Below, piece by piece: positions 2,743 through 40,038 of a stretch of 64,000 bases of DNA. Under the pieces are notes generated by a model. That model ran no database searches. It saw only the letters and a program-made list of their open reading frames with translations, and was not told where the DNA came from. The position numbers and the translations under genes were made by a program. The stretch is taken from IMG/VR virus record IMGVR_UViG_3300032303_001195, positions 1-64,000 of that record. One strand, 5' to 3'. The DNA comes from a virus. Its lineage: Duplodnaviria; Caudoviricetes. How positions within the stretch are numbered: the first letter of the stretch is position 1; the number at the start of each line of letters is the position of its first letter.

Positions 2743-2814
2743 GCCTCAATAGCTCAACGGTAGAGCACCTGTCTTGTAAACAGGAGGTTGTGATCTCGGA
2801 ATTCACTTGAGGCT
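2743..2814 (+). tRNA. tRNA-Thr(UGU) with atypical T-loop
   Basis: Acceptor GCCTCAA/TTGAGGC, D-arm GCTC..GAGC, anticodon arm CCTGT-CTTGTAA-ACAGG. T-loop reads CTCGGAA instead of TTCGAAT. Confidence 0.8.
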
Positions 2815-13377: not shown

Positions 13378-13378
13378 G

Positions 13379-13709
13379 TGGAAGTGCTGGGAATCGAACC
13401 CAGGTCCTAATCAGTTGTTGTCGGTATTCTACATGCTTAGATAGTTTCTCGAAGAGGTCTGGTTGCCACTATCAAGTCCAGATCCTTTTAACTATACCAT
13501 CCTAAGAAGCATCACATTATTTTACTGAGGATACCCACTGAGCGTGACCACTATAAGGTATCGGCTCTTTTTAATTGCCCTCGGAAGTTAGGCAGCTAGA
13601 GCGTAGCTGGATTTGTCTGCACTTATCCCTTTGTCACCAATCAAGTGATCGTGACAGTCACTACATGCTTCCCCGACACTGAGTGATTAGTCGAAAACCT
13701 TTCACTCCC
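13379..13709 (-). ncRNA. ssrA: tmRNA, tag peptide (A)ADKSSYALAA
   Basis: 5' GGGAGTGAAAGGTTTTCGAC and 3' GGACCTGGGTTCGATTCCCAGCACTTCCA form an Ala-type acceptor stem with G3-U. Resume codon follows ATAAGT at 13620, and the tag stops at 13588. Confidence 0.92.
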
Positions 13710-14020: not shown

Positions 14021-14704
14021 ATGGACATTGTTTATATTTGCCGTGAAGGTGACAACGAAGAGTTAAGATACTCAATTAGATCAGCAGTAAAAAACCTCCC
14101 TCATGATAATCTGTGGGTAGTTGGAGGGAAGCCTGATTGGTATACTGGCAAGCATATACCAGTAGAACAAAATAGATCATACTACGTAAATGCAAGAAAT
14201 AACTTAAGGGCTATTTGTGCCAGTAGAGACATCTCAGAAAGCTTTGTGCTGATGAATGACGACTTTTTTATAATGAACCCTACCCAAGGTATCCCCTATT
14301 TTCATTGTGGGTATTTAAAAGATAGAATTGAAAGAAGATTAACTAATGATAGAGCTAACATGTATACATATTATTTAAATCAAACATATAGTGATCTGTT
14401 TCAAAAAAGAATTTATAAACCAGTAAGCTATGAGCTTCATGTACCATTTGTTTTTGAAAAAGAAAAACTATTTGATGTACTAGGATATAAAGGTTTATGG
14501 AGATCTTTGTATGGGAACATTTATAATGTTGGTGGAGAACAAATGGAAGACGTAAAGCTTTTTAAATCTGAAAACCCATATGCAAATCATTCGTTTGATA
14601 TGGAAACTGCAACATTCGTGTCAACTGAAGATGAAGCGTTTCCACTATACAAAGAATGGTTCCAGAAGAAATTTCCAGAACCATCTTTGTTTGAGTCCCC
14701 TTGA
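14021..14704 (+). CDS. Stealth-family-like sugar-phosphotransferase
   Basis: DIVY, ELRYSIRS..KN.P and SESFVLMNDDFFI resemble Stealth conserved regions. Confidence 0.6.
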   Translation: MDIVYICREGDNEELRYSIRSAVKNLPHDNLWVVGGKPDWYTGKHIPVEQNRSYYVNARNNLRAICASRDISESFVLMNDDFFIMNPTQGIPYFHCGYLKDRIERRLTNDRANMYTYYLNQTYSDLFQKRIYKPVSYELHVPFVFEKEKLFDVLGYKGLWRSLYGNIYNVGGEQMEDVKLFKSENPYANHSFDMETATFVSTEDEAFPLYKEWFQKKFPEPSLFESP

Positions 14705-14768
14705 CTGGATTCGAACCAGCGACACAAGGATTAGAAGTCCTATGCTCTATCCACTGAGCTACAAGGGG
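14696..14768 (-). tRNA. tRNA-Arg(UCU)
   Basis: CCCCTTG/CAAGGGG acceptor, CTTCTAA anticodon loop, GGTTCGAATCC T-arm. Confidence 0.92.
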
Positions 14769-20752: not shown

Positions 20753-21119
20753 CTTTGTCCATCTCGCATTCGCTACAAATAATTACAGGTGTTCCATCAT
20801 ATCGCTTGTGGTCTACCCACACATGCTCGTCCATGTCGCACAGTGTCATTTCATATATGTCTATCTGAATAATTACATCTTGGTTATGTGGTATGTGACA
20901 GACATAGAATCCCATGCGATTGACAAAACTAATACCATTACTGATTACACTGTAGTCACCACCGTCTGTCCATGTCCAAAGATATTCATTGTCTATCTCT
21001 TGAATGATATCGTAGTCTGCACCATATGTTTCATACATAACAGGATTACCATCAAAATCACAGATTGGTTTGTATTGCTCTACCCACTCGTCGTAGGTAA
21101 GGTCGATTATAGTATTCAT
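20736..21119 (-). CDS. Hypothetical protein with C-terminal Zn motif
   Basis: Leaderless ORF after a TGTC-box promoter. Contains YETYG..WT..DG...VNRMG and C..H...CxxC. Confidence 0.75.
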   Translation of the reverse strand: MNTIIDLTYDEWVEQYKPICDFDGNPVMYETYGADYDIIQEIDNEYLWTWTDGGDYSVISNGISFVNRMGFYVCHIPHNQDVIIQIDIYEMTLCDMDEHVWVDHKRYDGTPVIICSECEMDKDDNES

Positions 21120-21147
21120 AGTTACACCTTATCACTAGGGTACGACA

Positions 21148-21381
21148 TTAGGAATATAGGGCGATGTATTCGTCAATAAGGTCTGGTTGGAATCCACTCC
21201 ACCACATGGTCCCTGCATTAACGACAGGAGCAGACTTAAATCCCTCGGCTAAAAGTTGATCGAGTGCGTCTACATCCTCGGTAATATCGACGGTAGTGTA
21301 GGCTACACCTTTATCGTCAAAGTACTTCTTAGTAGCATTACACTGTACACAGTTAGGTTTGGTATAGATAGTAGGAGTCAT
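21148..21381 (-). CDS. nrdH: NrdH-redoxin
   Basis: IYTKPNCVQC...APVV...WSGFQPD. Confidence 0.9.
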   Translation of the reverse strand: MTPTIYTKPNCVQCNATKKYFDDKGVAYTTVDITEDVDALDQLLAEGFKSAPVVNAGTMWWSGFQPDLIDEYIALYS

Positions 21382-21384
21382 ACT

Positions 21385-21630
21385 CTAGTTTACCACGGTC
21401 CGATACTGCTTATTCACAAAGTAGTCTTGTGAGTAAATAGTTTTCATCTCATGGTCATGTACACATCGTTGATAGTTTTGGAAAGCTAGCTCACCATAGA
21501 AAAACTTAGGTCGCTGTCCCTCTAGTACTACCTTATAAAAATCATTCTCGGTATCTGACTCCCATACCTCTGCAACCTGGGAATGATAGATACGACGCCA
21601 AACCTGGTCAGCTGCTTTTGGTCTACGCAT
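21385..21630 (-). CDS. Hypothetical protein
   Basis: Coupled start MRRPKAA. Confidence 0.6.
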   Translation of the reverse strand: MRRPKAADQVWRRIYHSQVAEVWESDTENDFYKVVLEGQRPKFFYGELAFQNYQRCVHDHEMKTIYSQDYFVNKQYRTVVN

Positions 21631-21742
21631 TATGGGTGTACTTCCTCTCCTGTACAAATAACTATTTCATTATTCTTATCTACAAATACATGCATGTTAG
21701 GAAAAGCATTCCCTACTAGTCGCTCTACCTCAGCTACAGACA

Positions 21743-21922
21743 TCATGCCTCTTCCTCCTCGTCTTCATCGCCCTCTTCATAGATAAGCTCTGCATCTACA
21801 GAATCGACGGAATCGTACTGAAGGTTCTCCATATAGTATCCTAATTGCTCTGCCTCTTCCTGAGACTCAGCCTCGATAGTACCAGAAAATCTAATTAGGG
21901 TTTCAACATAGTATTGGTTCAC
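21743..21922 (-). CDS. Small acidic hypothetical protein
   Basis: Hand translation ...IEAESQEEAE... with an acidic tail. GGAG RBS and GTG start. Confidence 0.6.
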   Translation of the reverse strand: MNQYYVETLIRFSGTIEAESQEEAEQLGYYMENLQYDSVDSVDAELIYEEGDEDEEEEA

Positions 21923-22185
21923 AGCATCTCCTCTAGTTGTTCATCGGTCAGGCTATCAATTCTAGCAAGACCCTCCGACAGCATCATGGCAATAGCCTTT
22001 TCTAATTCGTTCATATGTATAGTATGGCATGAGGGTACGACATTCTGCAACTTTTCAAGCCTTTCGTTACCTTATCGTAATCTGGGAAATATGTTTGTCT
22101 ATCGTAATGCATTAGAAATGAATGTTTGTATACAAATGGATCGGCGCCGCCACCACCTCCCCGAAGGGAGGCAGTGACTGACCGA

Positions 22186-23208
22186 CTAGGAAGCCATTGT
22201 CATATTCTGAACAATGCGAAGAATACGGTTCTTCTCTGCGTTCATAGCAGGGTCAAAGCCAGAAGCCGAAGCCAACACAGACTCGTTGTTACCCTTGCGA
22301 CCATTACGATACCAGTCAAGCCGTTCGGTGATACCGTTGAGCACCCCCCAAGCCGTTCCCGAAATCGTGTTGTTGAACTGACCGTTGTAGATGTCCTCAA
22401 CGAGTTCCAACTTAGTCTGCCACTTGGACATAGCACCCTTAGCGTCCTTCTCAGGCATGGGGTAGACCTCACGAAGAATGTCTTGGAACTTGTCGTTCGT
22501 GACCTCAGTCTCAATCATAGCCTGAGCCATCTTGTCAAACTCGTCCATGTATTCATTCGCAAGACCGAGAGCGATACGAGCCTCATTGACACGACCCTCA
22601 GCCGTCTGAGTGTGACGAATCTTGAACGACTGCTTGGCACTACGCCAGTGACCTGTGCCACTACCGATAGCCATGTTCAGAGTGTTCGCACATACGACAC
22701 GCACAGGCGTGATGCTCGCCATAATGGACACCGACCCATCGTGAGATGTGTTTACCAATAGGTAAGTGTTTACCTTGTCGCCTACACCCTTGGGGTCAAG
22801 CACAGTCTCACGCTCAAGAGCCAAAGCACCAAAGACAACACGACCACCCTTGATAGAACCAGCCGTCTCCCAGCGTCCACCACCATCGAGCAGGTTGTCA
22901 CCAAAGGTAAACAAGTCCTCATTCTGAAGCGTGTTGTAACGCTCACCAACGATACCCAGAATGTCTTTCTGACCATCGGTGAATGGGTTATTACGAGTAA
23001 CAAAATAGTTAGTCTTGTCAGAGGTGAATCCGTCAGGAATAGGAATCTCAGTCAAACCGACATTCCACTTGTCAAGGTGAGCAAGTTCGAGCATCTCAGA
23101 GGTAGTTACTTCTTCCTCCATGACCGTACCCAAACCATGCCACGCAGGTTCACGCAGAGTAGCAAAAGCGACCTCGCCGTTCGCACCCTGTTCAAGTTCG
23201 TGTGCCAT
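22186..23208 (-). CDS. DUF932-family phage/plasmid protein
   Basis: PAWHGLG, WETAGSIKGG, NTSHDGS, TPVRVVCANT, RHT, TAWG..N..TE..D. Confidence 0.9.
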   Translation of the reverse strand: MAHELEQGANGEVAFATLREPAWHGLGTVMEEEVTTSEMLELAHLDKWNVGLTEIPIPDGFTSDKTNYFVTRNNPFTDGQKDILGIVGERYNTLQNEDLFTFGDNLLDGGGRWETAGSIKGGRVVFGALALERETVLDPKGVGDKVNTYLLVNTSHDGSVSIMASITPVRVVCANTLNMAIGSGTGHWRSAKQSFKIRHTQTAEGRVNEARIALGLANEYMDEFDKMAQAMIETEVTNDKFQDILREVYPMPEKDAKGAMSKWQTKLELVEDIYNGQFNNTISGTAWGVLNGITERLDWYRNGRKGNNESVLASASGFDPAMNAEKNRILRIVQNMTMAS

Positions 23209-23353
23209 GTATAGCCTTTCATTAGCGGTTGTTTAGTTATATAAGTATGACACAGACCACCGACAATTACAAGCTCCAGAGACATATTCTTAATCATCGT
23301 AATTGAAATGTTACATTCGCAGATCGGGGCGCCGCCCTCGGAGGGTATGAGAA

Positions 23354-23380
23354 TAGGCAGTTTAAAGACATGCCTAGGTC
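23354..23380 (-). ncRNA. Conserved H-type pseudoknot motif, copy 1 (others at 24637-24665 and 25157-25183)
   Basis: GAC-C-UAGGCA-U-GUC-UU-UAAAC-UGCCUA, with compensatory changes between copies. Confidence 0.7.
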
Positions 23381-23435
23381 TATTGGATGGAGCCAAGAAA
23401 GGAATTAACAAAACTCCATCCTAGCTTTAAGGTCC

Positions 23436-23954
23436 CTACTCGTCCTCAAACTCCACAGAGTCAAGGTCGTAGTCGAAACTACTCAGAGCGTCATAGCCAT
23501 AAGCCACATTCAGGTCAGCCTCAAGTTCATAGCGGTCAAGTTCATCAGTGTCCTCAAAGATACTAATCTCAATCTGACCAGAGAAGTTGATACTACCAGA
23601 TACGTTTACGGTCTTGGTGAGTTGGCAACCGACCAATTCAGCAATCTCTTTAGCACCAGCATTGGTGACAAGTTCATGGTCAATCTGAGTCTTGAGAAGT
23701 TCCCCAAGGTTCTTACGGATTTCGTCAATTTGACGAGCCTCACGGTAGTAGTTCTCTTCCCAACGTTTAGCCTTATTCTCAAGTACCTCAATGTCTTTCT
23801 TCAAGTCACCAATCTGCATTGCGAGTGCAGTCTCGATACCGAGGTCAGCCTCTGGTACAGTTCCAGATAGGATTCCGCCTACAGGTGGCAATTCCTTGTG
23901 CTCCACGTTCTTGTATCCCATAAGTTGGTCGTAGGTTTCGTAGTTCTCTTCCAT
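23436..23954 (-). CDS. Hypothetical coiled-coil protein
   Basis: 172-aa ORF. Confidence 0.75.
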   Translation of the reverse strand: MEENYETYDQLMGYKNVEHKELPPVGGILSGTVPEADLGIETALAMQIGDLKKDIEVLENKAKRWEENYYREARQIDEIRKNLGELLKTQIDHELVTNAGAKEIAELVGCQLTKTVNVSGSINFSGQIEISIFEDTDELDRYELEADLNVAYGYDALSSFDYDLDSVEFEDE

Positions 23955-23956
23955 TA

Positions 23957-24211
23957 TTAGTTCCCCATTTCTTGAAGCATTTCAATAGTGTTGTTGAGAG
24001 TCTCAAAACCCTCTTCACCGAGGCAAACCTCAGCGGTAAGGAATGAGGACATAGAAGCAACCTCACCCACAAGGGCAAGCAAAGCACTACGCATAGTGTC
24101 CTCAGTCATTTCGAGACGGTCATACAGAATGGCACTAGCCAAAGTGATAGCCCTATCTGTTCGTACAGATTCACGGACAGCAGTCTGTAATCCAAAAGCA
24201 ATGTCAATCAT
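23957..24211 (-). CDS. Hypothetical protein
   Basis: Own promoter and GAAAGGG RBS. Confidence 0.7.
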   Translation of the reverse strand: MIDIAFGLQTAVRESVRTDRAITLASAILYDRLEMTEDTMRSALLALVGEVASMSSFLTAEVCLGEEGFETLNNTIEMLQEMGN

Positions 24212-24258
24212 TCTTTTCCCTTTCGTTGTTGACTTTAGTTTAGCAGTACCCACCGACA

Positions 24259-24480
24259 CTAGTCGGATAGGTCAGTGATGTGAGTGACGATAGTGTCAGT
24301 CTCACCCTCTTCAATCAAGTCCATAGCCTCTTCAGCGTCGATATCAAATTCGGGGTAGTTAGACTCGTCCAAGTATCCCATACCGACATTCCAAATAGCC
24401 TCAGCCTCGTCAGCAGAGTTTGCTCTAACCAAATAGGTAGTGCCATTGATAATTTCGTATAATCCCTTTTTCTTTTCCAT
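24259..24480 (-). CDS. Hypothetical acidic protein
   Basis: Leaderless ORF after a TGTC-box promoter. Confidence 0.7.
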   Translation of the reverse strand: MEKKKGLYEIINGTTYLVRANSADEAEAIWNVGMGYLDESNYPEFDIDAEEAMDLIEEGETDTIVTHITDLSD

Positions 24481-24675
24481 ATATAGAGTATGACACTACC
24501 CTCCGACATTTGCAAGCTCCAGGGGTCTATTTCGTAACATCGTAACCTGTTTGTTATATGGGCGGCGCTGATCGGCGCCCCCCACGAAGAAACCCCCTGC
24601 TACCAGCAATCTATCCAGACGCTTCACAGGGGGGAGTGAGTAGTTTACTTAGACATACTCAGGTCATTTTTCTAC

Positions 24676-25125
24676 TTACAGCAGTTCCATTACGGTGTTG
24701 TAGGTAGAGGCATTGACTTCCTCTTGGTTTGTCATTTTGAGAACCTTGAGGTTCTTCTTGAGCAAGTCCAACTTCGTCGTGTAGTCACGACCATACGACT
24801 GACGCTCATTCGGGTTAGAAGGTTCGACAGGCTTGGCAGGAAGGTCAAGCGAGTCGGTGTTTACATGAACAGTTACGCCACCAAGACCATAACGATTAGC
24901 CTCAACACGGATAATCGAGTCATACGAATCACCAATGTTGTCAGGGTTCTTGAGAGCCTCAATAACAGCCTGAAGAACAGCGTCGTTGTACGACTTTGTA
25001 GCCTGACGGAATGCTTCCTTGTCTTTGGGGTAGGTAGCAATGTCAGCCTCAAGTTTGGCAATAGTAGCCTCAACATCAGCAATCAAAGTTGCGGTGGGGA
25101 TTTTTACAGCAAGTGAACGAGCCAT
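24676..25125 (-). CDS. Hypothetical protein
   Basis: 149-aa ORF with AAAGGA RBS. Confidence 0.8.
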   Translation of the reverse strand: MARSLAVKIPTATLIADVEATIAKLEADIATYPKDKEAFRQATKSYNDAVLQAVIEALKNPDNIGDSYDSIIRVEANRYGLGGVTVHVNTDSLDLPAKPVEPSNPNERQSYGRDYTTKLDLLKKNLKVLKMTNQEEVNASTYNTVMELL

Positions 25126-25201
25126 TAGATTCCTTTTCTTTAGCAGTTTGTTTGAGTGGGCAGTTTAGCCTGATACCCAGCAGACAGACTAGGGTCTGAC
25201 C

Positions 25202-25342
25202 TTACTTGACCGTTGTCCAACGGCTGTCACCGTTAGGCAGGGTGAGCAGAACACGAGTCGAACCGCTTGCGTTCTTGATTACCTCGGCAATCGTGCCAGT
25301 CACACCCGACTTCTGCGTGGTGAAGATTTCTCCGATATTCAT
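25202..25342 (-). CDS. Small SH3-like hypothetical protein
   Basis: MNIGEIFTTQKSGVTGTIAEVIKN...RWTTVK, with GAGGA RBS. Confidence 0.7.
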   Translation of the reverse strand: MNIGEIFTTQKSGVTGTIAEVIKNASGSTRVLLTLPNGDSRWTTVK

Positions 25343-25509
25343 TGCTTCCTCATTTCTGTTGGCGAGCCAGCCAACTTATTTGTCCAAGCCGTTTGCTTGT
25401 TATACAAGTATGACACACACCACCGACATTATCAACTCCAAATGGCACTTTTGGGAGTTTTGTTATCATTTCGTAACCTAATTTTTGGGCAGGGGGGCGC
25501 CGCCCTCCA

Positions 25510-26232
25510 CTACTTTTTAGTAGCAGAGAACAGAATGTCATTGCGTTGGAAGATACATTGCCCACAGGTAACACAGGCACTACCCTTTTCGCTAATCATG
25601 GGTAGTTTCTTGTTATTTTCGGGGCATGGGATAGCACTCTCACCAGTAATTTCAAGAATGTCAGCCTTACCAATAGCGAATGTCTGAGCAAGGTAAGCCA
25701 ACTTGATACCGTGAGTCTCTTTTAGACTGATAGCCAATTCTTTGTTAGCACTATCGGTTGAGAAGTAGAAACCAAGATTAGGAATGTCAATCAGGATAGG
25801 CACAGCAAAGTCTGAACGTGTGTATGCCCAGAATTGCACATCTTGAAAGTCACAAATCACATCACGCCATGCATATGTGTAGTCTTCGTTGAAGAAGTCA
25901 CCGTCCCAGTGAATGCGGAATAGTTTTTCTGCACCACGACGCTCGCAATCAGAAACAAAATCCTCAATCATCTCATGGATAAGGTTATACATGGTTAGGT
26001 AGTCAGCGTCTTTGACTAATGCCCAGTTGTGTTCGAGGTTGATACGCACACCCTTGAATACCTTTTCCAACTTGCCAGCGTAGCAGATAGTTTCGCATAC
26101 GCTAGTAGCACCTGGACATGAGAAGGCAGTGCCAGAAGGCAAACCAAAAGTGTTAGCGATACTAGCCTGTTTGCCATTAGGCGTTACAGCGTTGGTTACT
26201 TTACGGTCTTTAGAGCGAATCAACTTTGTCAT
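25510..26232 (-). CDS. GP88-like (radical-SAM-related) phage protein
   Basis: FGLP.G..CPGA...C...CYA and FRIHWDGDF...YTRS, with C-terminal CP...CxxC..C. Confidence 0.75.
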   Translation of the reverse strand: MTKLIRSKDRKVTNAVTPNGKQASIANTFGLPSGTAFSCPGATSVCETICYAGKLEKVFKGVRINLEHNWALVKDADYLTMYNLIHEMIEDFVSDCERRGAEKLFRIHWDGDFFNEDYTYAWRDVICDFQDVQFWAYTRSDFAVPILIDIPNLGFYFSTDSANKELAISLKETHGIKLAYLAQTFAIGKADILEITGESAIPCPENNKKLPMISEKGSACVTCGQCIFQRNDILFSATKK

Positions 26233-26369
26233 AGTCTTACTATACATTGACCCACCGACATTGGGGGATACAGGATCTGGTCGGCGCCGCCCCTAGGGGT
26301 TGTGCGTTATCGAGTCGCACCCCTCGGTCAGGTTCTCGCAATCCTGACATTGTTAGCGAGAGTCTTTGA

Positions 26370-26864
26370 CTACCAAGAAGCCTGATAGGTGAAACTCACA
26401 CTATCGTCACCGTAGGTCTGAATCAGAACACGGTCTAACTCTTTGGCGGTGTCCTCCAAGTCTGACCAATACCACTCGTCATACTCAGTTGAGCCAAAGA
26501 AGAAGCCTGACGAAGTAGGCAGAGCCACAGGTGCTTTCTCACGGTGAATGAGAACATCCTTTACCAAGTCACGCAAGTCCTCTAAATCCTTGCGACGGAC
26601 ATAGATAGGCTGACACTCGTCTACACCGTTGGCGAGATTGTCCACAAACCATTGGTGAATTGCATTTGCCTTACGCCAATAGATAGCGGTAGCAGTTACA
26701 GAAACGCTGTAGTTATGCTCGTCGGTCACGAAGTTTTTGAGTCCAGCAGTCTCAAGAATAGCCAAGCCTTCTGGCACATCCTTTTTGACAATATCGCCAT
26801 TCTCCTGAACCCAATCAGAAGTTCGAACATTCTTGCGAACCTCAAGATACATGTCCAAGCCCAT
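26370..26864 (-). CDS. Conserved phage hypothetical protein
   Basis: MGLDMYL...YWRKANAIHQWF...LPT..GFFFGS.EYD...Y.ASW. Confidence 0.8.
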   Translation of the reverse strand: MGLDMYLEVRKNVRTSDWVQENGDIVKKDVPEGLAILETAGLKNFVTDEHNYSVSVTATAIYWRKANAIHQWFVDNLANGVDECQPIYVRRKDLEDLRDLVKDVLIHREKAPVALPTSSGFFFGSTEYDEWYWSDLEDTAKELDRVLIQTYGDDSVSFTYQASW

Positions 26865-26910
26865 TAGTTTTTCCTTTCGTTTCTTTTTATTTTAGCAGTA
26901 CCCACCGACA

Positions 26911-27018
26911 TTACTCACAATTGTGAAACACATAACTGCTTGCGATATCGGTAAAGCCACACTCAACACATTCGCACATAAGTCCAGCACGAGTCGGGGT
27001 AATAATCATTTTCGTCAT
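26911..27018 (-). CDS. Micro Zn-finger protein (35 aa)
   Basis: CxxC...HxC, leaderless after a promoter copy. Confidence 0.55.
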   Translation of the reverse strand: MTKMIITPTRAGLMCECVECGFTDIASSYVFHNCE

Positions 27019-27198
27019 AAAATAACTATAACAGCACCCACCGACACTGGGGGGCGCCGCCCTCCTATGGATTCCTAGACTTGATTTTTCTAACTACTGA
27101 CTCAATGATAAACAACACTGCAAAAATCAAAGGGGATAAAATAGCCATCCCAATAATTATTGCAATCAGTGTGAGCGTTAGAATTATTAGAAACCCCA

Positions 27199-27976
27199 CT
27201 ACTCAAGCACCTCATATTTGGGATTAGAATATTCTCCCCTTACCCGAATGGATTCCTCGAACATCTTCCAGCCTGTTTGGAATGTCTTTGGGTGACAGTA
27301 TTGGTCAAGGGAATACAGGATATCCTCGCCATCAGTGTTTGGGTCAAAATCTTCGGGTACGGTAACATCAGTAGTCAGCGTAGTAGTGATACGATATGTA
27401 GGCATTATGCTCCTTAGTGGTCAATTTCGTGGTACAGGCAGGTAGTGCAGATTTTTGTCCAGTCGTTACCGTCGCCTTCATCGGGTGCGAGGGTATCGGG
27501 TGCAAAGTCATTACAAACAGTCATTTTACTCCTTAGAGAAACTCGAATGGGTCACGGTCTTGGAAGATATCCTCAAAGTCTTGCATGGAATAGGATTGTG
27601 GATTTTCATACCACTCTTCCAATGCCTCCAGGATTTCCATACCCTGCTCGTCACCCTCAAACGGATTGCTTTTCATCCCACACCTCCGAATACTTTACAA
27701 TGAACTCACGAACACTTGGAACATGAGTGAAGTCTGCTTCCTTATTTAGTGCCATGTCTAATAGGTCACCAGCCACGATAGCCAGAAACTGTTTCTCTTC
27801 CATTATGCCTCCCACTTGTCGGTTGGTAGTCCATTCAGTATAGCGTAGACGTACGACATTTTCTCGTAGTCAGGCAGGATTTCGAGGGTATCCCATTGGG
27901 CAATAGTCACGTCAGTAGTATCAAACACTAGACAATCTTCTGCCCCATAGTTACCATACTCTGATACATAAGCCAT
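27199..27976 (-). CDS. Operon of five small hypothetical ORFs (27803-27976, 27657-27803, 27533-27676, 27414-27524, 27199-27405)
   Basis: Tiled ORFs with RBSs downstream of the promoter copy at 28016. Confidence 0.6.
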
Positions 27977-28046
27977 GATTTTTTCCTTTCGTAAGTAATC
28001 CTATTATGACACTACCCACTGACATTGGGTCGGCGCCCCTGGATCT

Positions 28047-28122
28047 TGGCTCCCCCTCATGGACTCGAACCATGAACCTGCTGATTAACAGTCAGCTGCT
28101 CTGCCAATTGAGCTAAAGGGGA
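28047..28122 (-). tRNA. tRNA-Asn(GUU)
   Basis: Canonical cloverleaf, CTGTTAA loop, encoded CCA. Confidence 0.95.
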
Positions 28123-28123
28123 A

Positions 28124-28200
28124 TGGCGACTCTGACCAGACTTGAACTGGCGACCCCTACCGTGACAGGGTAGTGCTCTAACCAACTGAGCTACAGAGCC
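28124..28200 (-). tRNA. tRNA-Asp(GUC)
   Basis: Canonical cloverleaf, CTGTCAC loop, encoded CCA. Confidence 0.95.
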
Positions 28201-28214
28201 ATTGTCCTATTGTA

Positions 28215-28376
28215 TCAGGCATACTCCCGAATAGCAACCTGCTTGATTGCCCCACGAGTCCTCTGACGGTTAGGTCGATTGTCGTGAGTGGTAGCCGCAT
28301 TGGAACTACGCAGACCACGCATAGCAACAATGTATGCGGTGTTCTGAATCTTCTTGGGTGCTGTCTTTTTCTTCAT
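28215..28376 (-). CDS. Small basic hypothetical protein
   Basis: LRSSNAATTH...RQRTR, leaderless after a promoter copy. Confidence 0.65.
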   Translation of the reverse strand: MKKKTAPKKIQNTAYIVAMRGLRSSNAATTHDNRPNRQRTRGAIKQVAIREYA

Positions 28377-28468
28377 ATCTCAATACTAGCAGTGACCACT
28401 GACATTGGAGGCATTTTTAGTAATATACTTAATAACATTCCGATAACGGATCGGGGCGCCGCCCCCCC

Positions 28469-29767
28469 CTAAAAGGGAGGTCGGTTCAGTAGTGCCTCAT
28501 ATTCGGCTTCCTTGTATTTCGTGTACAGGTACAGAATCACAAGGGTGTCGAACAGAATCACGCCCATCATTATGACGAACAGCCAAAATAGGTTCATTAG
28601 TTCTCCTCGAAGTCATAGCAAGCGTTGATAAATACATTGCGTTGGAATCGCTCATTGTCCTTAGCAAACATATCTGCGAAGTCATGAACAAGGTCAAGCA
28701 TACGCTGTTCGTTACTGATTGGCATATCACCAATAAAATCAGCAAGAATGCTAGCGGTTTCCACATAGTCTTTGCGTGTCATCATTTTAGTGTGTCCTTT
28801 TCTTTGTTGGTTTTAGTTTACAGCAAGCCACCGACACTACGAACCGTAGACGGTCAGCAGTGTGCGGTAGCCATTGGCACGACCCTCGCACCACGAAGCC
28901 ATGCCTTCCATGCCAGCCTCACGGTACATGATTACATCAGCCTCGTTTTGCTCGGCAAGCCACTCAAGCGATTCGACTGGGATAGTGATTGTGTTTTCCA
29001 TAGTTTTCCTTTCGTTGTATAACAACTGTATCAGTACCCACCGACATTGCAGGGCATTTACAGCGTGTTTCGTATAACGGTTTGATAACAGTCGGGGCGC
29101 CGCCCCTGCTAGTTGTAGCCCTCTACCCAAATATTTTCCTCTAACAGCATGTCCACATAGTCAGCGAAGCCACAGCGGTATGCGATTGGGTCACAGTTCT
29201 TGAGAATGTCTGCAGGGTAGAACTCTGAGTAGCCAATGGTCACAATGCCATAGCAATCATTTAGATATGCGTCATAGTCATCTCGGGCTTGTTCTTCGGA
29301 CAGGATTTCGTGCTTTGCGATTTCGTTCATATAATGACTATAACACTACCCACCGACAGAGGTCGGCGCCCCCCTAATATCCATAGTCTTCGTCAGTACC
29401 CCAGCCAGCAGAGGCAAGAGCATCTGCATCCCACCAAGACTCGTCTGGCTCGTAGTCCTGAGACTCAAGAGAGTTGCCAGAGATGTCCCAATAGGCTTCG
29501 GTGTCCTCAACAGTCCACTCATTGCCGAGGTCGTCAAGGTAGGCGACAATCTCGTTACCCTCACCAAAAATAGGCTCAAAAATCATTAGTTATCCTTTCG
29601 TTGTTATAACAAGAATAGCAGGGGGTACTGACACTCCTCCGTAATTCACTTGGTAAGCGGATCGGCGCCGCCCCCTACCAGCGGAAGTCTTCCTGTTCGT
29701 CATACCATTCCTGGTAGACGTATTCGGTTCCACAGCCACAGCAGGGGCGGTCTTCACATGTACACAT
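28469..29767 (-). CDS. Six micro-ORF cassettes (28469-28597, 28597-28785, 28837-29001, 29109-29330, 29374-29586, 29675-29767)
   Basis: Each is framed by a promoter/RBS and a palindrome or the next promoter. They include MTRKDY...ERF...AC and CEDRPCCGC peptides. Confidence 0.7.
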
Positions 29768-29816
29768 AGTGTGCCTTTCGTTTGGAGTGATAAAAGAATA
29801 GCAAGGGCTACCGACA

Positions 29817-29972
29817 CTACATGTTTCTAGTGTCAGCCTCAGCCACGATTTCCGCATCAGGGAACACCTTGATACAGGTGGCACACAGTGCGACAGGGGT
29901 TTCTCGCAAGAAGCCAAGCTCAATAAGGTACACAGCGTCTCGGTGCTGGCAGAATTCACATTCGGGGTTCAT
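29817..29972 (-). CDS. CxxC-CxxC micro zinc-finger protein
   Basis: MNPECEFCQHRDA...LCATC...IVAEADTRNM. Confidence 0.65.
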   Translation of the reverse strand: MNPECEFCQHRDAVYLIELGFLRETPVALCATCIKVFPDAEIVAEADTRNM

Positions 29973-30133
29973 AGTTTTCCTTTCGTTACCACTAGACTAG
30001 CATGACCCACCGACATTGGGGAAAATTTCCGAGGCGTTTTAATGCGCTTACGTAAACTGATTTTGGAATGGTCGGGCGGCGCCGACCCCACCGACATTTG
30101 TCAAGCGACACGCCGATCGGGTTGACTTATTTT

Positions 30134-30265
30134 TCAGGGGCAGAAGGTCGCCCAAAACAAAAGAATAAACCAATAGGCAGAGTACAAAATAGCAAAAGCC
30201 ATACCAATGCGAACAACTGCCCTAGCGATACCACGAACAACATAGTAAGTCTTTGAGTGATTCAT
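30134..30265 (-). CDS. Small membrane protein
   Basis: AGGAG RBS and a hydrophobic C-terminal half. Confidence 0.6.
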   Translation of the reverse strand: MNHSKTYYVVRGIARAVVRIGMAFAILYSAYWFILLFWATFCP

Positions 30266-30272
30266 TATGCTC

Positions 30273-30443
30273 CTAGTCTGCAATCGGGAAGATATCAAGA
30301 ATCGGGAAGGCAGTTTCCAATTCATCGCACACGATAGCATCGTGGCACTGTTGACAGACAGCGACAAAAGTCAGTTCGACAATTTCGGTGTCATACTCCA
30401 AGACTTCACGAGCCTCACGGTAGTCACAGATTTCACATTCCAT
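30273..30443 (-). CDS. CxxC-CxxC micro zinc-finger protein
   Basis: MECEICDYREA...VCQQC. Confidence 0.65.
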   Translation of the reverse strand: MECEICDYREAREVLEYDTEIVELTFVAVCQQCHDAIVCDELETAFPILDIFPIAD

Positions 30444-30595
30444 TAGTTTTCCTTTCGTTTACGTTTTGATTCTAACAGCACCCACCGACATTCACATACG
30501 CGACACGCCGATAACCCAGAAAAAAGTTATCCACATCTTAAATAAAAGTTATCCACAGGGCGGCGCCGCCCCCTGCGACATTTGTCAAGTCCTGG

Positions 30596-30955
30596 CTAGG
30601 CGTTTCGCAAATATTCCATTGCCCTAGCGATGCGGTCTAAATCATCTTGGAACACGCCCAAGCCACGGTTACAGTTGTGGCAGATGTGTCCACGGAATGC
30701 ACCTGTACCGTGGTCGTGGTCTACTACCCACACCGATGCGTTGCCACCTGTTCCCTTTAGTTCATCTTCTGACTTCAGGCAGATAGGGCAGGTGTGTCCC
30801 TGTTCGGGGTAGCCATACTCTTTACGCAGAGCACGACGCTCACTAGACAACTTACGACCACAGTCACGGCACTCAGGTCGCAGGTACTTGCCACCAGAGG
30901 CAGGGGAGAATGAAGCGTGAGGTAGGGACTCTTGGCACTTGGAACAGGTTTTCAT
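30596..30955 (-). CDS. Endonuclease VII-family (HNH-type) nuclease
   Basis: CPIC...VVDHDH.TG..RG..C..CNRGLG.F.DD. Confidence 0.9.
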
Positions 30956-31160
30956 AGGTTTCACTTTACGCTAGGGTACTGACATTGTGGTAAGCGACAC
31001 GCCGATTACAGGAAAATTTTCAAGGCATTTTAATGGATCTACGTAAATGTGGATAAGTTATCAACAGGCGGCGCCGATTTTTTTGGAATACGCAAACCGA
31101 CACGCCGTGTATTCCAAAATTGGCATATGCGAGAGATCCCGATTTGGGGAGGGTAGTCTG

Positions 31161-31298
31161 CTAACTAGCAAACTCGCCCTCTTCACGCATGATAGCGAAA
31201 CGCTCGCTAATCAGGCAAGGCTTACAGATAAGCCATTCACCATGTGCGGACACATAGACAGTCTCTACAGACTTTTCACAAACTTCACAAATTTTCAT
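31161..31298 (-). CDS. CxxC-CxxC micro zinc-finger protein
   Basis: MKICEVC...ICKPC. Confidence 0.6.
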   Translation of the reverse strand: MKICEVCEKSVETVYVSAHGEWLICKPCLISERFAIMREEGEFAS

Positions 31299-31315
31299 TT
31301 TGAGTTTTCCTTTCT

Positions 31316-31471
31316 TTACTTGAGAGCGTCAAGCATACGCTCGAACGCCTCTTCGGTTAGTGACACGGTAGCCATGCCGATTACGAATGGGTAAGCCTCT
31401 GTGCGAGACTTGAGGTTGTACTTAGCGACACAAGCGTCAAGCACCTGATTCATCATTTCTGATTTTTCCAT
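31316..31471 (-). CDS. Small hypothetical protein
   Basis: GAAAGG RBS, and a repeated 5'UTR motif upstream. Confidence 0.65.
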   Translation of the reverse strand: MEKSEMMNQVLDACVAKYNLKSRTEAYPFVIGMATVSLTEEAFERMLDALK

Positions 31472-31667
31472 TTTAGTTTTACCTTTCTTTAGCGAGTGAG
31501 ACTTATTTGCTCTGAGACTTATTTGCTAGGCTCACCTTTCGGATTATTTGCTAGGCTCATTCTCTGAGGCTCATTCTCACTCTGTGTAGTTTTTATCTTA
31601 TGTCTTGAGACTATCAGACATTATCTGAAAAGTCAAGCCGACACGCCGTGTTTGCGAAAAAAAGTTT

Positions 31668-31775
31668 TTATTTCTTTTCTGCCATGAATGCGACCATCAA
31701 GCCAAGCAATTCTTCCTGGCTCATGTCTTCCATGTCCTGAACACCTTCGGTGGTGATTACCTTCATGAAACCCAT
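31668..31775 (-). CDS. Micro-ORF (35 aa)
   Basis: GAAAGGAG RBS after a promoter copy. Confidence 0.6.
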   Translation of the reverse strand: MGFMKVITTEGVQDMEDMSQEELLGLMVAFMAEKK

Positions 31776-31997
31776 TTGGTTTCTCCTTTCTATCTGTAAA
31801 CAGACTAACAGTACCCACCGACATTCGACCCCCTGTTTTTCCATCTAGGGGAAATTTTTAGGTAAACATAAGGTAAATTCTTATCCACAAAGTTATCCAC
31901 AGGGGGGCGCCGCCCCCACCGACATTTGTCAAGTCGACACGCCGTGTTTGTCAAAATTAGTTTGTGGTCGATCCACGAGCCACCAACAGGCGACACC

Positions 31998-32144
31998 CTA
32001 GTTTCGGGTATCAGCCTCAGCGACTATGTAGTGAGGCGTAGTCATGCGAGACTCGCAACGCACACACACATAGGTAGGCATGGACTCCATCATCATCATG
32101 ATTTCGAGAGTAGCCTCATAGTATTCACAGAATGTACAGGTCAT
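31998..32144 (-). CDS. CxxC-CxxC micro zinc-finger protein
   Basis: MTCTFCEYYEA...VCVRC...IVAEADTRN. Confidence 0.65.
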   Translation of the reverse strand: MTCTFCEYYEATLEIMMMMESMPTYVCVRCESRMTTPHYIVAEADTRN

Positions 32145-32189
32145 AGTTTTCCTTTCTTTGTATTTACAGTATGACATAGGGTACTGACA

Positions 32190-32390
32190 CTACAGTACGG
32201 TCACCTTGTTTCCAAGGGTAGCGTAGGCAGTAGTGCCATTAGTAAAAGTAACCTGACAGGTAGTACCGTTCAGTCCTTTCACGTTAGCGATAACACCTGT
32301 GTAGTGAAACACAGGTCCAAACGGATAAGGCTTGTTGCTGAACGCAACACGCTTTCCGATTAGGGATTTGATTTTTTGAGTGTAAGTCAT
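32190..32390 (-). CDS. Small beta-rich hypothetical protein
   Basis: GAAAGGA RBS. Confidence 0.7.
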   Translation of the reverse strand: MTYTQKIKSLIGKRVAFSNKPYPFGPVFHYTGVIANVKGLNGTTCQVTFTNGTTAYATLGNKVTVL

Positions 32391-32629
32391 GATTGACTTC
32401 CTTTCTTTTTAGGAGGGATTTATTTGCTAGGCTCATTCCCGATTGGGACTTATTTGCTAGGCTCACTCCCTCGTGACTTACTTACAGTATCGCAGTACCC
32501 ACCGACATTGGAGGGCATTTTAGTAGGGGTTTCACCCTATTTTTAGGTTAACGTAAGTATAAAGTTCATCCACAGAGTTATCCACAGGGCGGCGCCGCCG
32601 CCTCAAACATTTGTCAAGGCGACACGCCG

Positions 32630-32859
32630 TTAGGCGTTCATTTTCTTTTTGGTCAGAGCTAGCAACTCTTCGAATTCCAATTCAGTCATGTACTCACCCT
32701 TAGCAATGAGCATGAGTTCTTGATAGCGTGACATTAGTTTACCTTTCGTTAGTGTTTTGATTTTAGCAGGTGGTACTGACACTAGAGTCCGAATATCTTT
32801 ACCAAGATAACGAACACGAGGGTTAGTACCGATACTGTGAATGAGACGATAGCGAGCAT
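32630..32859 (-). CDS. Two micro-ORFs (32782-32859 single TM peptide; 32630-32734)
   Basis: Each has its own promoter copy and GAAAGG RBS. Confidence 0.6.
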
Positions 32860-33534
32860 TTGAGTTATTACCTTTCTTTGTTATGACTATAGTCAATCAC
32901 TAACCACCGACATTAGCAATGCGACACGCCGATAAGTGAAAAAATAAAAAAAAGAAAGTTTTGGGGGTGTGTAGTGGTGTGCTCACTATAGTCGACCCCC
33001 CCATAGGCTATTTTTTCTGTATCGTTCATCTTTAAAAAATATTCAGATTTTCATCAAATCCAAAATAAAAAATTTTTCAGATTTTAGCCATACACAGATT
33101 TAAGAATCAGGATCACCAGGGTGTACGATAGGACAATAGCCACAGCACCTGCGAGGATCAATCCGATATTTTTCAGGGCAGACAAAATCTTCGTCATGCT
33201 GTGATTGTTTCGGGGGTACGGTTAACAAGTCCATAATGCAAAGCCCATATAGTAATAAGCTTGTATGAAACCTTCTGCTCTTTGCTGATAGCACGAACAC
33301 TCTTGGTTTCTAGCTCTTTAGCGAGCCAATCTTTGTTTTCATAGTTTTTTACTTTGACTGGATCCATTATTCTCTCCTTAGAATGAGTCGGCGTCAGGAA
33401 TTAAGTTTATGTCATGGCAAATGCAATATTCTGGATCTCCATTAAAGATGCAGACGCATTCTTCTGATTTGTTAAGGTTTAAAACTTCGGGGGTATCACA
33501 AGAACAATTACCATTACACATAGTAATAATTATA

Positions 33535-35066: not shown

Positions 35067-40038
<4,972 letters not shown>

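What the first reader, a model, noticed from the sequence alone, without database searches (positions are those of the whole stretch)
23354..25183. Three copies of a compact RNA pseudoknot with compensatory base changes
Seen on the minus strand, each downstream of an ORF: GAC-C-UAGGCA-U-GUC-UU-UAAAC-UGCCUA (23354-23380), GAC-C-UGAGUA-U-GUC-UAAG-UAAAC-UACUCA (24637-24665), CUG-C-UGGGUA-U-CAG-GC-UAAAC-UGCCCA (25157-25183). Both stems covary while the single C, the single U and UAAAC are invariant, which points to selection on structure. Inference: a nuclease-blocking element, a small ligand or protein aptamer, or a mimic of pseudoknotted type III antitoxin RNA. I cannot assign it to a named family.
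Basis: partly seen in the sequence, partly recalled or inferred. Interest (0 to 1): 0.75.

Follow-up and report, generated by a model that had tools for sequence, protein, structure and literature searches.

The report
Coremin-like RNA pseudoknot after phage genes
The three repeats are real copies of a 27-29-base RNA pseudoknot that phages and some bacteria place just after stop codons. It is in no RNA catalogue, resembles the plant-virus 'coremin' RNA that stalls RNA-degrading enzymes and ribosomes, and probably acts as a roadblock between genes, though this is untested.

Summary
Three minus-strand copies (25183-25157, 24665-24637, 23380-23354) share one plan: S1 of 3 bp, one C, S2 of 6 bp, one junction base, a 2-4 nt linker, UAAAC.

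Phage relatives found by protein homology carry 3-5 copies each, and both stems covary. A pattern that left S1 unspecified gave at least 120 IMG/VR loci, and S1 paired perfectly in 121 of 123 matches. A second pattern gave 70 bacterial or archaeal loci. Rfam 15 has no match.

The knot lies on the coding strand. It usually starts 6-8 nt after a stop codon and almost never closer than 5 nt. An RBS, promoter, U-run or tRNA follows it.

Its invariant bases are the ones mutagenesis found essential in the coremin motif (xrRNA-C). Here an enlarged loop forms a Watson-Crick S2, and coremin's second hairpin is absent.

My best reading (about 45%) is a cis-acting barrier or insulator at gene ends against ribosomes and 5'-3' RNA decay. 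Recoding, type III antitoxin mimicry, known riboswitch classes and a promoter reading found no support.

Function was not tested here. This scan has noted the same motif before in at least 62 other genomes.

The parts
25157..25183 (-). Pseudoknot copy a. S1 25183-25181 (CUG) pairs with 25172-25170 (CAG). L1 is C 25180. S2 25179-25174 (UGGGUA) pairs with 25162-25157 (UGCCCA). Junction U 25173, linker GC 25169-25168, UAAAC 25167-25163. It lies between a 46-aa ORF and a 149-aa ORF.
   Evidence: Sequence. Model R1 scores 42.5 bits, E = 3.3e-10 in the own genome; this copy was in the training set. The same position is conserved in relatives L001-L015.
24637..24665 (-). Pseudoknot copy b. S1 24665-24663 (GAC) pairs with 24654-24652 (GUC). 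L1 is C 24662. S2 24661-24656 (UGAGUA) pairs with 24642-24637 (UACUCA). Junction U 24655, linker UAAG 24651-24648, UAAAC 24647-24643. It starts 10 nt after the stop of the 149-aa ORF.
   Evidence: Sequence. It was not in the model's training set and is still found at 26.1 bits, E = 2.6e-5. Orthologous copies occur in L003, L006, L008, L009.
23354..23380 (-). Pseudoknot copy c. S1 23380-23378 (GAC) pairs with 23369-23367 (GUC). L1 is C 23377. S2 23376-23371 (UAGGCA) pairs with 23359-23354 (UGCCUA). Junction U 23370, linker UU 23366-23365, UAAAC 23364-23360. It starts 55 nt after the stop of the 172-aa ORF.
   Evidence: Sequence. R1 scores 38.6 bits, E = 4.8e-9. An identical copy lies in L016; diverged orthologues with UAAAAG lie in L003, L006, L009.
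25202..25342 (-). 46-aa ORF whose TAA stop (25204-25202) lies 18 nt before copy a.
   Evidence: ORF list; sequence; no Pfam or PHROG family.
24676..25125 (-). 149-aa ORF. Its start lies 31 nt after copy a, and its TAA stop (24678-24676) lies 10 nt before copy b.
   Evidence: Homologues at 47-76% identity in 15 IMG/VR contigs. No Pfam or PHROG family.
23436..23954 (-). 172-aa ORF whose TAG stop (23438-23436) precedes a hairpin and then copy c.
24585..24633 (-). Intrinsic-terminator-like hairpin (CCCCCCUG...CAGGGGG) with a UUUCUUCG tail, starting 3 nt after copy b. A GGCGCC-centred hairpin (24583-24560) and a promoter-like site (TTGCAA 24515-24510, 17 nt, CATACT 24492-24487) follow.
   Evidence: Fold of 24560-24672: -44.4 kcal/mol, z = -2.9; sequence.

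Best explanation
The three elements are RNA, transcribed as part of the phage's early minus-strand messages. Each folds into a compact H-type pseudoknot built as follows.
- A 3-bp stem S1.
- A single C that crosses the deep groove of a 6-bp stem S2.
- One unpaired junction base.
- A linker plus (U)AAAC that runs along S1.

The fold belongs to a large, uncatalogued family found in phages and some bacteria. The family shares its critical bases with the coremin (xrRNA-C / xrRNA-WCC) pseudoknot of eukaryotic RNA viruses.

I propose that it works in cis as a direction-dependent mechanical barrier at the end of a cistron. It sits as close to the stop codon as a terminating ribosome allows, so it stays folded. 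There it would stop whatever moves 5' to 3' along the message, namely stray or post-termination ribosomes and 5'-3' decay (RNase J, or scanning RNase E). That would insulate neighbouring translation and decay units.

Shown here: the fold (by covariation), the strand, the family and its breadth, the anchoring to stop codons, and the base-by-base match to coremin mutational data.

Inferred: that the RNA blocks anything, and which machine it blocks.
For: 1. Both stems covary, and S1 pairs in 121 of 123 matches where it was not part of the search pattern.

2. The sense strand is the one that folds. There are 116 G.U pairs against 11 A.C. In 251 of 270 copies a same-strand frame of at least 50 codons ends within 200 nt upstream or inside the knot.

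3. The knot is anchored to the stop codon. Spacing from the stop to S1 has a cliff below 5 nt and a peak at 6-8 nt. This holds after collapsing the upstream ORFs into 181 unrelated groups, and the spacer sequences are diverse. From established ribosome geometry (my own knowledge), this is where frameshift-stimulating pseudoknots sit relative to the A-site codon. It is also the nearest point a terminating ribosome need not unwind.

4. What follows the knot varies: SD plus start in 123 of 270, a U-run in 43 of 270, otherwise promoters or tRNAs. The element therefore belongs to the end of the upstream gene.

5. It matches coremin mutational data (PMC6546385). Shared features:
- a 3-bp hp1 whose pairs can be swapped;
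- a first loop base C (U tolerated);
- a penultimate loop A;
- a last loop base that is G, A or U;
- A15-A17, C18 and U19 essential;
- U13 and U14 replaceable, and an insertion after G12 tolerated.
In 106 family members not selected by my search patterns, L1 is C in 104. The A, the AAAC and the following U are fixed, though the parse required AAC and counted the A, the core's first A and the U among its six membership features. The first U of UAAAC and the linker length vary.

6. PMC10321173 proposes the same H-type topology for coremin (L1 = nt 5, S2 = loop with spacer). It shows 22% -1 frameshifting, and that a Watson-Crick variant still blocks ribosomes without hp2. PMC10520033 shows that coremin blocks scanning ribosomes.

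7. Cultured phages carrying the knot infect Actinobacteria, Firmicutes, Cyanobacteria, Rhodobacterales and, for crAss-like phages from human feces, presumably Bacteroidota (my knowledge). One weak Pasteurella-phage hit (E = 0.9) is the only other proteobacterial case. There is no match in 5,426 E. coli genomes for the commonest variant.
Against: Coremin's hp2, which is strictly needed for Xrn1 resistance, is not a feature here. A hairpin directly after the knot occurs in 29 of 270 copies, against 28-34 of 270 in controls.

RNase J (TIGR00649) was found in only 4 of 10 knot-bearing bacterial genomes and is absent from a record titled as a whole chromosome of a deltaproteobacterial MAG. An RNase J block therefore cannot be the general function.

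In this window the spacings are 18, 10 and 55 nt, not the typical 6-8. Copies b and c are followed only by terminator-like hairpins, so nothing coding lies downstream to protect.

Nested-fold energies are modest: -5.5 to -8.3 kcal/mol, z about 0 to -2.5.

The likeness to coremin could be convergence on a small fold.
Confidence: 0.45

Rival explanations
1. The knot is a 3'-end element of the upstream message. It would cap the mRNA against 3'-5' exonucleases after termination or downstream processing, and where a U-run follows it would act as a (leaky) intrinsic terminator.
For: - The element belongs to the upstream gene's end whatever follows it.
- 43 of 270 copies are followed directly by a U-run.
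- L067 has eight cassettes of stop, knot, AUAUUUUUU and promoter within 3.3 kb.
- In Arthrobacter phage Amigo the knot ends 3 nt before tRNA-Gly. RNase P cleavage would therefore leave it as the 3' end of the SSB message.
- Window copies b and c sit at the ends of transcription units.
Against: - A 6-bp S2 is a weaker 3' barrier than an ordinary GC-rich hairpin (-5.5 to -8.3 kcal/mol).
- The architecture (short S1 braced by an A-rich loop, 1-nt L1) is that of knots resisting force from the 5' side (PMC10321173).
- 84% of copies lack a U-run, and 46% are followed by the next gene's SD and start on what is most simply the same transcript.
- Copy b has its own separate terminator 3 nt downstream.
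Confidence: 0.22
2. The knot is a binding site (operator or aptamer) for a protein or a small molecule, such as a phage or host RNA-binding protein or a riboswitch ligand, that controls the neighbouring genes.
For: The single-stranded bases are invariant (C, AAAC, U), and S2 has a fixed purine/pyrimidine orientation (U-R-R-R-Y-A). Both are typical of specific recognition. In bacteria the knot lies in 5' leaders of Rrf2/ferredoxin and thioredoxin/DsbD operons.
Against: - No Rfam family matches, even at E up to 10.
- The neighbouring genes are unrelated across hundreds of loci, and the knot precedes promoters, terminators and tRNAs as well as genes.
- The SD and start are not part of the fold.
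- The same conserved bases are explained by tertiary contacts in the coremin model (PMC10321173).
- The spread across many phyla would require a universal partner.
Confidence: 0.12
3. The knot is a recoding signal that stimulates stop-codon read-through or frameshifting at the end of the upstream ORF.
For: The 6-8 nt spacing from the stop equals the spacer of frameshift and read-through pseudoknots. Coremin stimulates -1 frameshifting (PMC10321173).
Against: - Only 1 of 90 copies has a slippery heptamer.
- TAA, the tightest stop, is used in 69%.
- The spacings show no 3-nt periodicity.
- All three frames close after a median of 8-16 codons past the stop.
- In this window the spacings are 10, 18 and 55 nt.
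Confidence: 0.04
4. It is a DNA-level signal or a decoy RNA: a variant of the phage's TGTC-box/-10 promoter, a folded single-stranded-DNA recombination site, or a mimic of a type III antitoxin or another defence RNA.
For: - TAAACT fits a TAnnnT -10 hexamer, and copy a's 5' flank (TGTCTGCT) resembles the abundant TGTC-box promoter.
- The site is annotated 'putative promoter' in S. aureus phage phiJB.
- Many copies on early transcripts would suit a decoy.
Against: - Two interleaved covarying helices with G.U tolerated on one strand only are not a promoter property.
- Orthologous copies have AAAACU, CAAACU, GAAACU or UAAAAG, which break the -10.
- Copy a's spacing from the TGTC box to the hexamer is 11 nt, not 8.
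- The copies are dispersed rather than tandem, and no ToxN gene is present (control uninformative).
Confidence: 0.06

Closest known systems
Coremin motif (xrRNA-C) of beny-, cucumo- and many other eukaryotic RNA viruses, GUCCGAAGACGUUAAACUAC plus hp2 (PMC6546385, PMC10520033)
   Same: - A 3-bp first stem whose pairs can be exchanged. GUC/GAC is also among the commonest S1 here.
- The first loop base is C.
- The penultimate loop base is A, and the last loop base is mostly G, A or U.
- A 2-nt replaceable linker that tolerates insertions.
- An invariant AAAC followed by U.
- It lies in untranslated RNA close behind the last stop codon.
- Loops of up to 8 nt are tolerated in coremin.
   Different: - Here the loop is 8 nt and pairs by Watson-Crick rules (6 bp) with the bases after UAAAC.
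- The second loop base is U, not G.
- The downstream hairpin hp2, needed for Xrn1 resistance, is absent.
- The loop-closing pair may be G-C here, which inactivates coremin.
- The carriers are DNA phages and bacteria, which have no Xrn1.
- Function is untested.
Watson-Crick coremin variant xrRNA-WCC (screen hits and Sanxia picorna-like virus 5; PMC10321173)
   Same: An H-type pseudoknot with a 1-nt L1, in which the hp1 loop pairs canonically with the spacer. It blocks ribosomes (frameshift stimulation about 30%) even without hp2. The natural example lies 8 nt after the last ORF.
   Different: In xrRNA-WCC, S2 is 3 bp and includes the C of AAAC paired with the last loop base, and L1 is G. Here S2 is 6 bp, starts after the C, and L1 is C.
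Luteoviral -1 frameshifting pseudoknots (BWYV, PLRV)
   Same: A compact H-type knot with a C in L1, an unpaired junction base and an A-rich loop along S1. In BWYV the L1 C forms a protonated triple in the S2 groove. The spacing from the decoding site is 6-8 nt.
   Different: The stem sizes are reversed (S1 5 bp and S2 3 bp in BWYV). Those knots follow a slippery heptamer inside an ORF overlap, whereas here there is a stop codon, no slippery site and no extended frame.
T4/T2 gene 32 mRNA pseudoknot (translational operator)
   Same: A phage mRNA H-type pseudoknot with a single-nucleotide L1 crossing a 6-7 bp S2, located in an intercistronic leader.
   Different: That knot occurs in one copy, 5' of the SSB gene, and is bound by gp32. 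Here there are many copies after unrelated genes, with different conserved bases, and no SSB gene follows in this window.

Membership tests
Coremin / xrRNA-C | 5' hairpin hp1 with a 3-4 bp stem whose pairs can covary | tested here: met
   S1 is 3 bp. It is paired in 121 of 123 matches where it was not specified, and there are 4, 2 and 3 pair types at the three positions.
Coremin / xrRNA-C | hp1 loop consensus YGAD / YGNNAD (first Y, second G, penultimate A, last not C) | tested here: inconclusive
   The first base is C in 104 of 106. The penultimate base is A in 106 of 106, although A was one of the six parse criteria. The last base is A, U or G in 95 of 106. The second base is U (99 of 106), not G, and the loop is 8 nt.
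Coremin / xrRNA-C | Conserved spacer GUUAAACUAC, with AAACU(A) essential and the first bases replaceable | tested here: met
   AAC is fixed by the parse. The A before it (99 of 106) and the U after it (106 of 106) were parse criteria, and both are invariant in the independently aligned A2 copies. The preceding U varies and the linker is 1-7 nt, mostly 2. The next base is G in 93 of 106 and A in 6. Compared with PMC6546385.
Coremin / xrRNA-C | Second hairpin hp2 directly after the spacer | tested here: not met
   The bases after UAAAC pair back into the hp1 loop instead. A hairpin starting at -1 to +2 after the knot occurs in 29 of 270 copies, against 28-34 of 270 at control offsets or in shuffles.
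Coremin / xrRNA-C | Stalls Xrn1 in vitro; blocks scanning ribosomes | not testable with these tools
   This needs enzyme and translation assays.
H-type pseudoknot (structural class) | Two helices in which the loop of the first pairs with sequence 3' of it, both supported by covariation | tested here: met
   paired cells 95-96% against 25-46% when slid, with 7-8 of 9 pairs changing on both sides. A3 was pre-selected for pairing; A2 and one search were not selected on S1.
preQ1-I and other small pseudoknot riboswitches (Rfam) | Match to the family covariance model; position in a 5' leader with an expression platform | tested here: not met
   No Rfam 15 match at gathering score in the window or in 15 other loci, nor at E up to 10 in 23000-25500. 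The contexts are heterogeneous.
Type III antitoxin RNA (ToxI, CptI, TenpI) | Tandem array of 34-45 nt repeats next to a ToxN-type endoribonuclease gene | tested here: not met
   The copies are 500-1300 nt apart, each after a different ORF. No PF13958 match in the 92-kb genome, though the control genomes did not ring either.
Programmed recoding signal (-1 frameshift or read-through) | Slippery heptamer or leaky stop 5-9 nt upstream, with an open extended frame | tested here: not met
   1 of 90 heptamers, TAA in 69%, and frames close after a median of 8-16 codons. Only the spacing fits.

The most novel reading that the evidence does not exclude
The knot is the prokaryotic counterpart of the coremin xrRNA. 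It would be a protein-independent, one-way barrier that phages (and some bacterial leaders) use to stop ribosomes and 5'-3' RNases at gene boundaries. Its natural 6-bp Watson-Crick S2 would supply the covariation proof, so far missing, for the pseudoknot proposed in coremin. That would make it the first exoribonuclease- and ribosome-resistant RNA class shared between DNA phages, bacteria and eukaryotic RNA viruses.
Probability: 0.3. Interest if true: 0.85.

Novelty: new variant of a known kind. Interest (0 to 1): 0.7.

Why it matters
If the knot really is a barrier, phages and bacteria have a tiny portable module (27 nt) that marks gene ends on polycistronic messages and separates the translation and decay of neighbours.

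This would extend the xrRNA concept from eukaryotic RNA viruses to prokaryotes. It would also give structural biologists hundreds of natural sequence variants of the still unsolved coremin fold.

It would give synthetic biology a very short insulator. Genome annotators would gain a marker for true stop codons and transcript architecture in uncultured phages.

The motif occurs in cultured phages of Arthrobacter, Microbacterium, Corynebacterium, Bacillus and Staphylococcus, so the question can be tested directly.

Tried and rejected
- **Rfam.** The whole window at gathering score, 23000-25500 at E up to 10, and 15 other loci gave nothing relevant.
- **Megablast of 22000-26500 against cultured phages.** No match.
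- **Promoter reading.** TAAACT looks like a -10 and copy a's flank resembles the TGTC box. I rejected it because both interleaved stems covary, orthologues break the hexamer, and the spacing is 11 nt rather than 8.
- **Recoding.** Rejected.
- **RNase J-specific xrRNA as the general function.** Weakened: RNase J found in 4 of 10 carrier genomes, though most are MAGs that may be incomplete.
- **hp2-like hairpin after the knot.** No enrichment.
- **Thermodynamic support.** Nested folds of the isolated copies are unremarkable (z = 0.06, -2.15, -2.52). ViennaRNA cannot score the pseudoknot.
- **ToxN search.** Empty, with an uninformative control.
- **Pfam and NCBIfam on the bacterial micro-ORF.** Nothing.
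- **A possible fourth copy at 55832-55808 (-).** S2 and TAAAC fit, but S1 is out of register and the model does not find it, so it is probably chance.
- **Literature searches for a phage or bacterial version of coremin or xrRNA.** Nothing found in the held library. Subscription journals are not covered.
Full report
**What the window is.** The 64-kb window is the first part of a 92,156-bp IMG/VR virus record, estimated 85% complete.
- It encodes a tape-measure protein, portal, head protease, collagen-like tail fibre and ribonucleotide reductase.
- It also carries a tmRNA and tRNA genes: ARAGORN finds three, and Rfam finds a fourth on the + strand.
- The region from about 20 to 33 kb is a dense array of small minus-strand genes with many copies of a TGTC-box promoter-like repeat and GGCGCC palindromes.
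- The DUF932 protein next to the finding has its best relatives in Streptomyces, Mycobacterium, Microbacterium, Arthrobacter and Gordonia phages. A neighbouring protein is Pfam GP88.
- An actinobacterial host is therefore likely. This is an inference.

**The observation.**
- Copy a (25183-25157) lies between a 46-aa and a 149-aa ORF. It is 18 nt after the stop and 31 nt before the next start.
- Copy b (24665-24637) starts 10 nt after the 149-aa ORF. A terminator-like hairpin with a U-rich tail follows 3 nt later.
- Copy c (23380-23354) lies 55 nt after the 172-aa ORF, behind a separate hairpin, and is followed by a GC palindrome and a promoter-like site.
- A covariance model finds only these three copies in the whole 92-kb genome.

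**Is the pseudoknot real?** I fetched relatives by protein homology, not by the motif. Fifteen IMG/VR contigs encode a homologue of the 149-aa ORF at 47-76% identity, and one encodes the 172-aa ORF.
- Each of five relatives' records searched whole carries 3-5 copies, mostly at the same positions, with different stem sequences.
- On a gap-free alignment of 22 copies, 95.3% of cells pair against 25-46% with slid partners. All three S1 pairs and four of six S2 pairs change on both sides. No shuffle of 500 reaches the covariation score.
- The strongest test of the short S1 came from a collection scan with CTGGGYANNNNNNTAAACTGCCCA, which says nothing about S1. In 121 of 123 matches the three bases before the C pair perfectly with the three after the junction, in 16 different combinations.
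- Among informative pairs, G.U is ten times as frequent as A.C (116 against 11). The strand that folds is therefore the coding strand.
- Nested-fold energies of the isolated copies are unremarkable. The case rests on covariation, not on thermodynamics.

**The family.** In all sequence held (1.9 Mb) a structural parse gives 294 members, clearly separated from the background. 276 candidates satisfy all six extra features, whereas the background candidates satisfy 0-3.

In the 106 members that do not match my search patterns:

| Position | Observed |
|---|---|
| L1 | C in 104 of 106 |
| S2 5' strand | U-R-R-R-Y-A |
| Junction base | A 45, U 41, C 11, G 9 |
| Linker | 2 nt in 75% (range 1-7) |
| Core | NAAAC, with N = U in 61% |
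| Base after the core | always U (a parse criterion) |
| Middle S1 pair | U-A or A-U in all 70 aligned copies |

- A second scan of 185,579 species genomes with a tighter pattern gave 70 loci. By my estimate about 0.03 are expected by chance.
- Those loci lie in Desulfobacterota, Omnitrophota, Planctomycetota, Chloroflexota, Cyanobacteria, Bacteroidota, Saccharibacteria, a Weissella and two archaeal MAGs. None is from gamma- or betaproteobacteria.
- Rfam 15 has no model for it.

**Context.** The knot is co-oriented with genes and anchored to the stop codon upstream.
- In 251 of 270 copies, a frame of at least 50 codons ends within 200 nt upstream or inside the knot.
- The gap between the stop and S1 has a sharp lower edge at 5 nt and a peak at 6-8 nt.
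- The peak survives collapsing the upstream ORFs into 181 unrelated groups, and the spacer sequences are diverse.
- What follows varies. An SD-like sequence and a start occur within 70 nt in 123 of 270 copies, and a U-run directly in 43 of 270. Others are followed by promoters, as in eight consecutive cassettes in L067, or by tRNA genes.
- Even the copies before tRNAs have a stop codon 5-7 nt upstream.
- In this window the spacings (18, 10, 55 nt) are looser than the family mode.

**Comparison with what is known.** An earlier agent's note in this scan (e1-5893644) pointed to the coremin motif. I read the three primary papers and compared position by position.
- Coremin is GUC-CGAA-GAC-GUUAAACUAC followed by a hairpin hp2 (PMC6546385).
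- Mutagenesis there shows the following:
  - the 3-bp stem can be swapped;
  - the first loop base must be C (or U);
  - the penultimate loop base must be A, and the last G, A or U;
  - U13 and U14 can be replaced, and UU can be inserted after G12;
  - A15-A17 (as a block), A16, A17, C18, U19 and A20 (singly) cannot be changed.
- These are the positions that vary and that are invariant in the phage family.
- One of the commonest phage forms, GUC-C-UGGGCAU-GAC-GU-UAAAC-U..., shares 15 bases with coremin.
- PMC10321173 proposes an H-type pseudoknot for coremin, with L1 the first loop base, S2 between the loop and CUAC, and the adenosines in the S1 groove. It shows 22% -1 frameshifting. A Watson-Crick variant keeps its ribosome-blocking activity without hp2, but not its Xrn1 resistance.
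- PMC10520033 shows that loops of up to 8 nt are tolerated and that scanning ribosomes are blocked. It mentions neither phages nor bacteria.
- Differences here:
  - the loop is 8 nt and forms a 6-bp canonical S2;
  - the second loop base is U;
  - the loop-closing pair can be G-C;
  - hp2 is not a feature (29 of 270 against 28-34 of 270 in controls).
- I therefore file it as coremin-like, not as a member of that family.

**Mechanism.** I rank a cis-acting 5'-to-3' barrier or insulator at gene ends first, at about 0.45.
- The architecture, the coremin parallel and the stop-codon geometry all point that way. From general knowledge of the ribosome's mRNA channel, 5-6 nt after the A-site codon is the nearest position that a terminating ribosome need not unwind. 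It is also where frameshift knots sit.
- Which machine is blocked remains open.
- RNase J is a candidate in this phage's likely host. Cultured carriers infect Actinobacteria, Firmicutes, Cyanobacteria, Rhodobacterales and, for crAss-like phages from human feces, presumably Bacteroidota (my knowledge). None infects enterobacteria, and no E. coli genome matches the commonest variant.
- Against RNase J as the general target, it was detected in only 4 of 10 knot-bearing bacterial genomes, and hp2 is missing. Together these favour the ribosome as the common target.
- The main rival, at 0.22, is a 3'-end cap or leaky terminator. It is supported by the U-run cassettes, by Amigo's knot ending 3 nt before a tRNA, and by window copies b and c lying at the ends of transcription units.
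- Recoding is disfavoured: 1 of 90 slippery heptamers, 69% TAA, and frames that close within 8-16 codons.
- A ligand or protein operator, a promoter variant and an antitoxin mimic have little or no support.

**Standing in the scan.** A word search shows 69 earlier notes on 'coremin pseudoknot' in at least 62 other genomes, with the same conclusion from other follow-up agents. This window adds another actinophage-type carrier. It also adds the RNase J and hp2 tests, the clustered spacing analysis, and the bacterial micro-ORF leader described under things noticed in passing.

Noticed in passing
L143-L212 (for example L179:1815-1895:-, L180:3867-3944:+, L196:4320-4382:-): About 40 bacterial loci share a conserved micro-ORF of 18-29 aa, ...K[YF]M[LV]RPVAHC[KS]EGC..., with no Pfam or NCBIfam match. 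They come from Omnitrophota, Desulfobacterota, Planctomycetota, Aminicenantes and Geobacteraceae. The micro-ORF's stop lies just before or inside the knot (UGA formed by the junction plus S1', or the UAA of UAAAC). An Rrf2-type regulator gene follows 7-40 nt later in many loci (Pfam-confirmed with a ferredoxin-domain gene in L180), or a DsbD-like/thioredoxin-AhpC operon (L196). It looks like a ribosome-sensed leader built on the same knot.
   Followed up: partly
window 21100-32950, minus strand (for example 24262-24240, 26914-26890, 27053-27030): There are more than 20 copies of a promoter-like repeat, AATGTCGGTGGGTAnTGnTAnnnT, often preceded by a GGGCGGCGCCCC palindrome, giving one cassette per small gene. 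Copy a's 5' flank (TGTCTGCTGGGTA...CTAAACT) resembles this repeat but with 11-nt rather than 8-nt spacing.
   Followed up: no
window 13378-13709 (-), 14695-14768 (-), 28047-28200 (-), 2743-2814 (+): The phage encodes a tmRNA (tag ADKSSYALAA) and tRNA-Arg(tct), tRNA-Asn(gtt) and tRNA-Asp(gtc). Rfam calls a fourth tRNA on the + strand that ARAGORN does not report.
   Followed up: no
L067:129-3321 (-): Eight consecutive cassettes lie within 3.3 kb of an IMG/VR contig: stop codon, knot, AUAUUUUUU, then a TTGTCG/TATAAT-type promoter. Here the knot doubles as the hairpin of a terminator-like signal.
   Followed up: partly
L020 and L021 (G001:11418-11450 -, G002:34522-34555 +): Close relatives of this phage have an extra copy 8-9 nt after a 216-aa ORF and about 30 nt before a DNA polymerase III alpha-like gene (MSYAGLHVHTHYSLFDG...). 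One of them has the variant core UAAUC. The own genome has no copy at such a place.
   Followed up: partly
L216:904-931 (Arthrobacter phage Amigo, NC_041949.1 about 39915-39942): In a cultured phage the knot sits 9 nt after the SSB gene's stop and ends 3 nt before tRNA-Gly. RNase P processing would therefore leave it at the 3' end of the SSB message. This is a good experimental system.
   Followed up: partly
L215:902-927 (S. aureus phage phiJB, KT344895.1 21456-21481): 83 Staphylococcus phage records hold a weaker version (S2 only 4 bp) followed by a U-run. It lies between a head-morphogenesis module and the scaffold and capsid genes. In phiJB, B166 and B236 the site is annotated as a putative promoter.
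   Followed up: partly
window 23385-23428 (-): A separate hairpin (GGAUGGAG ... CUCCAUCC, about 20-nt loop) fills the gap between the 172-aa ORF's stop and copy c.
   Followed up: no
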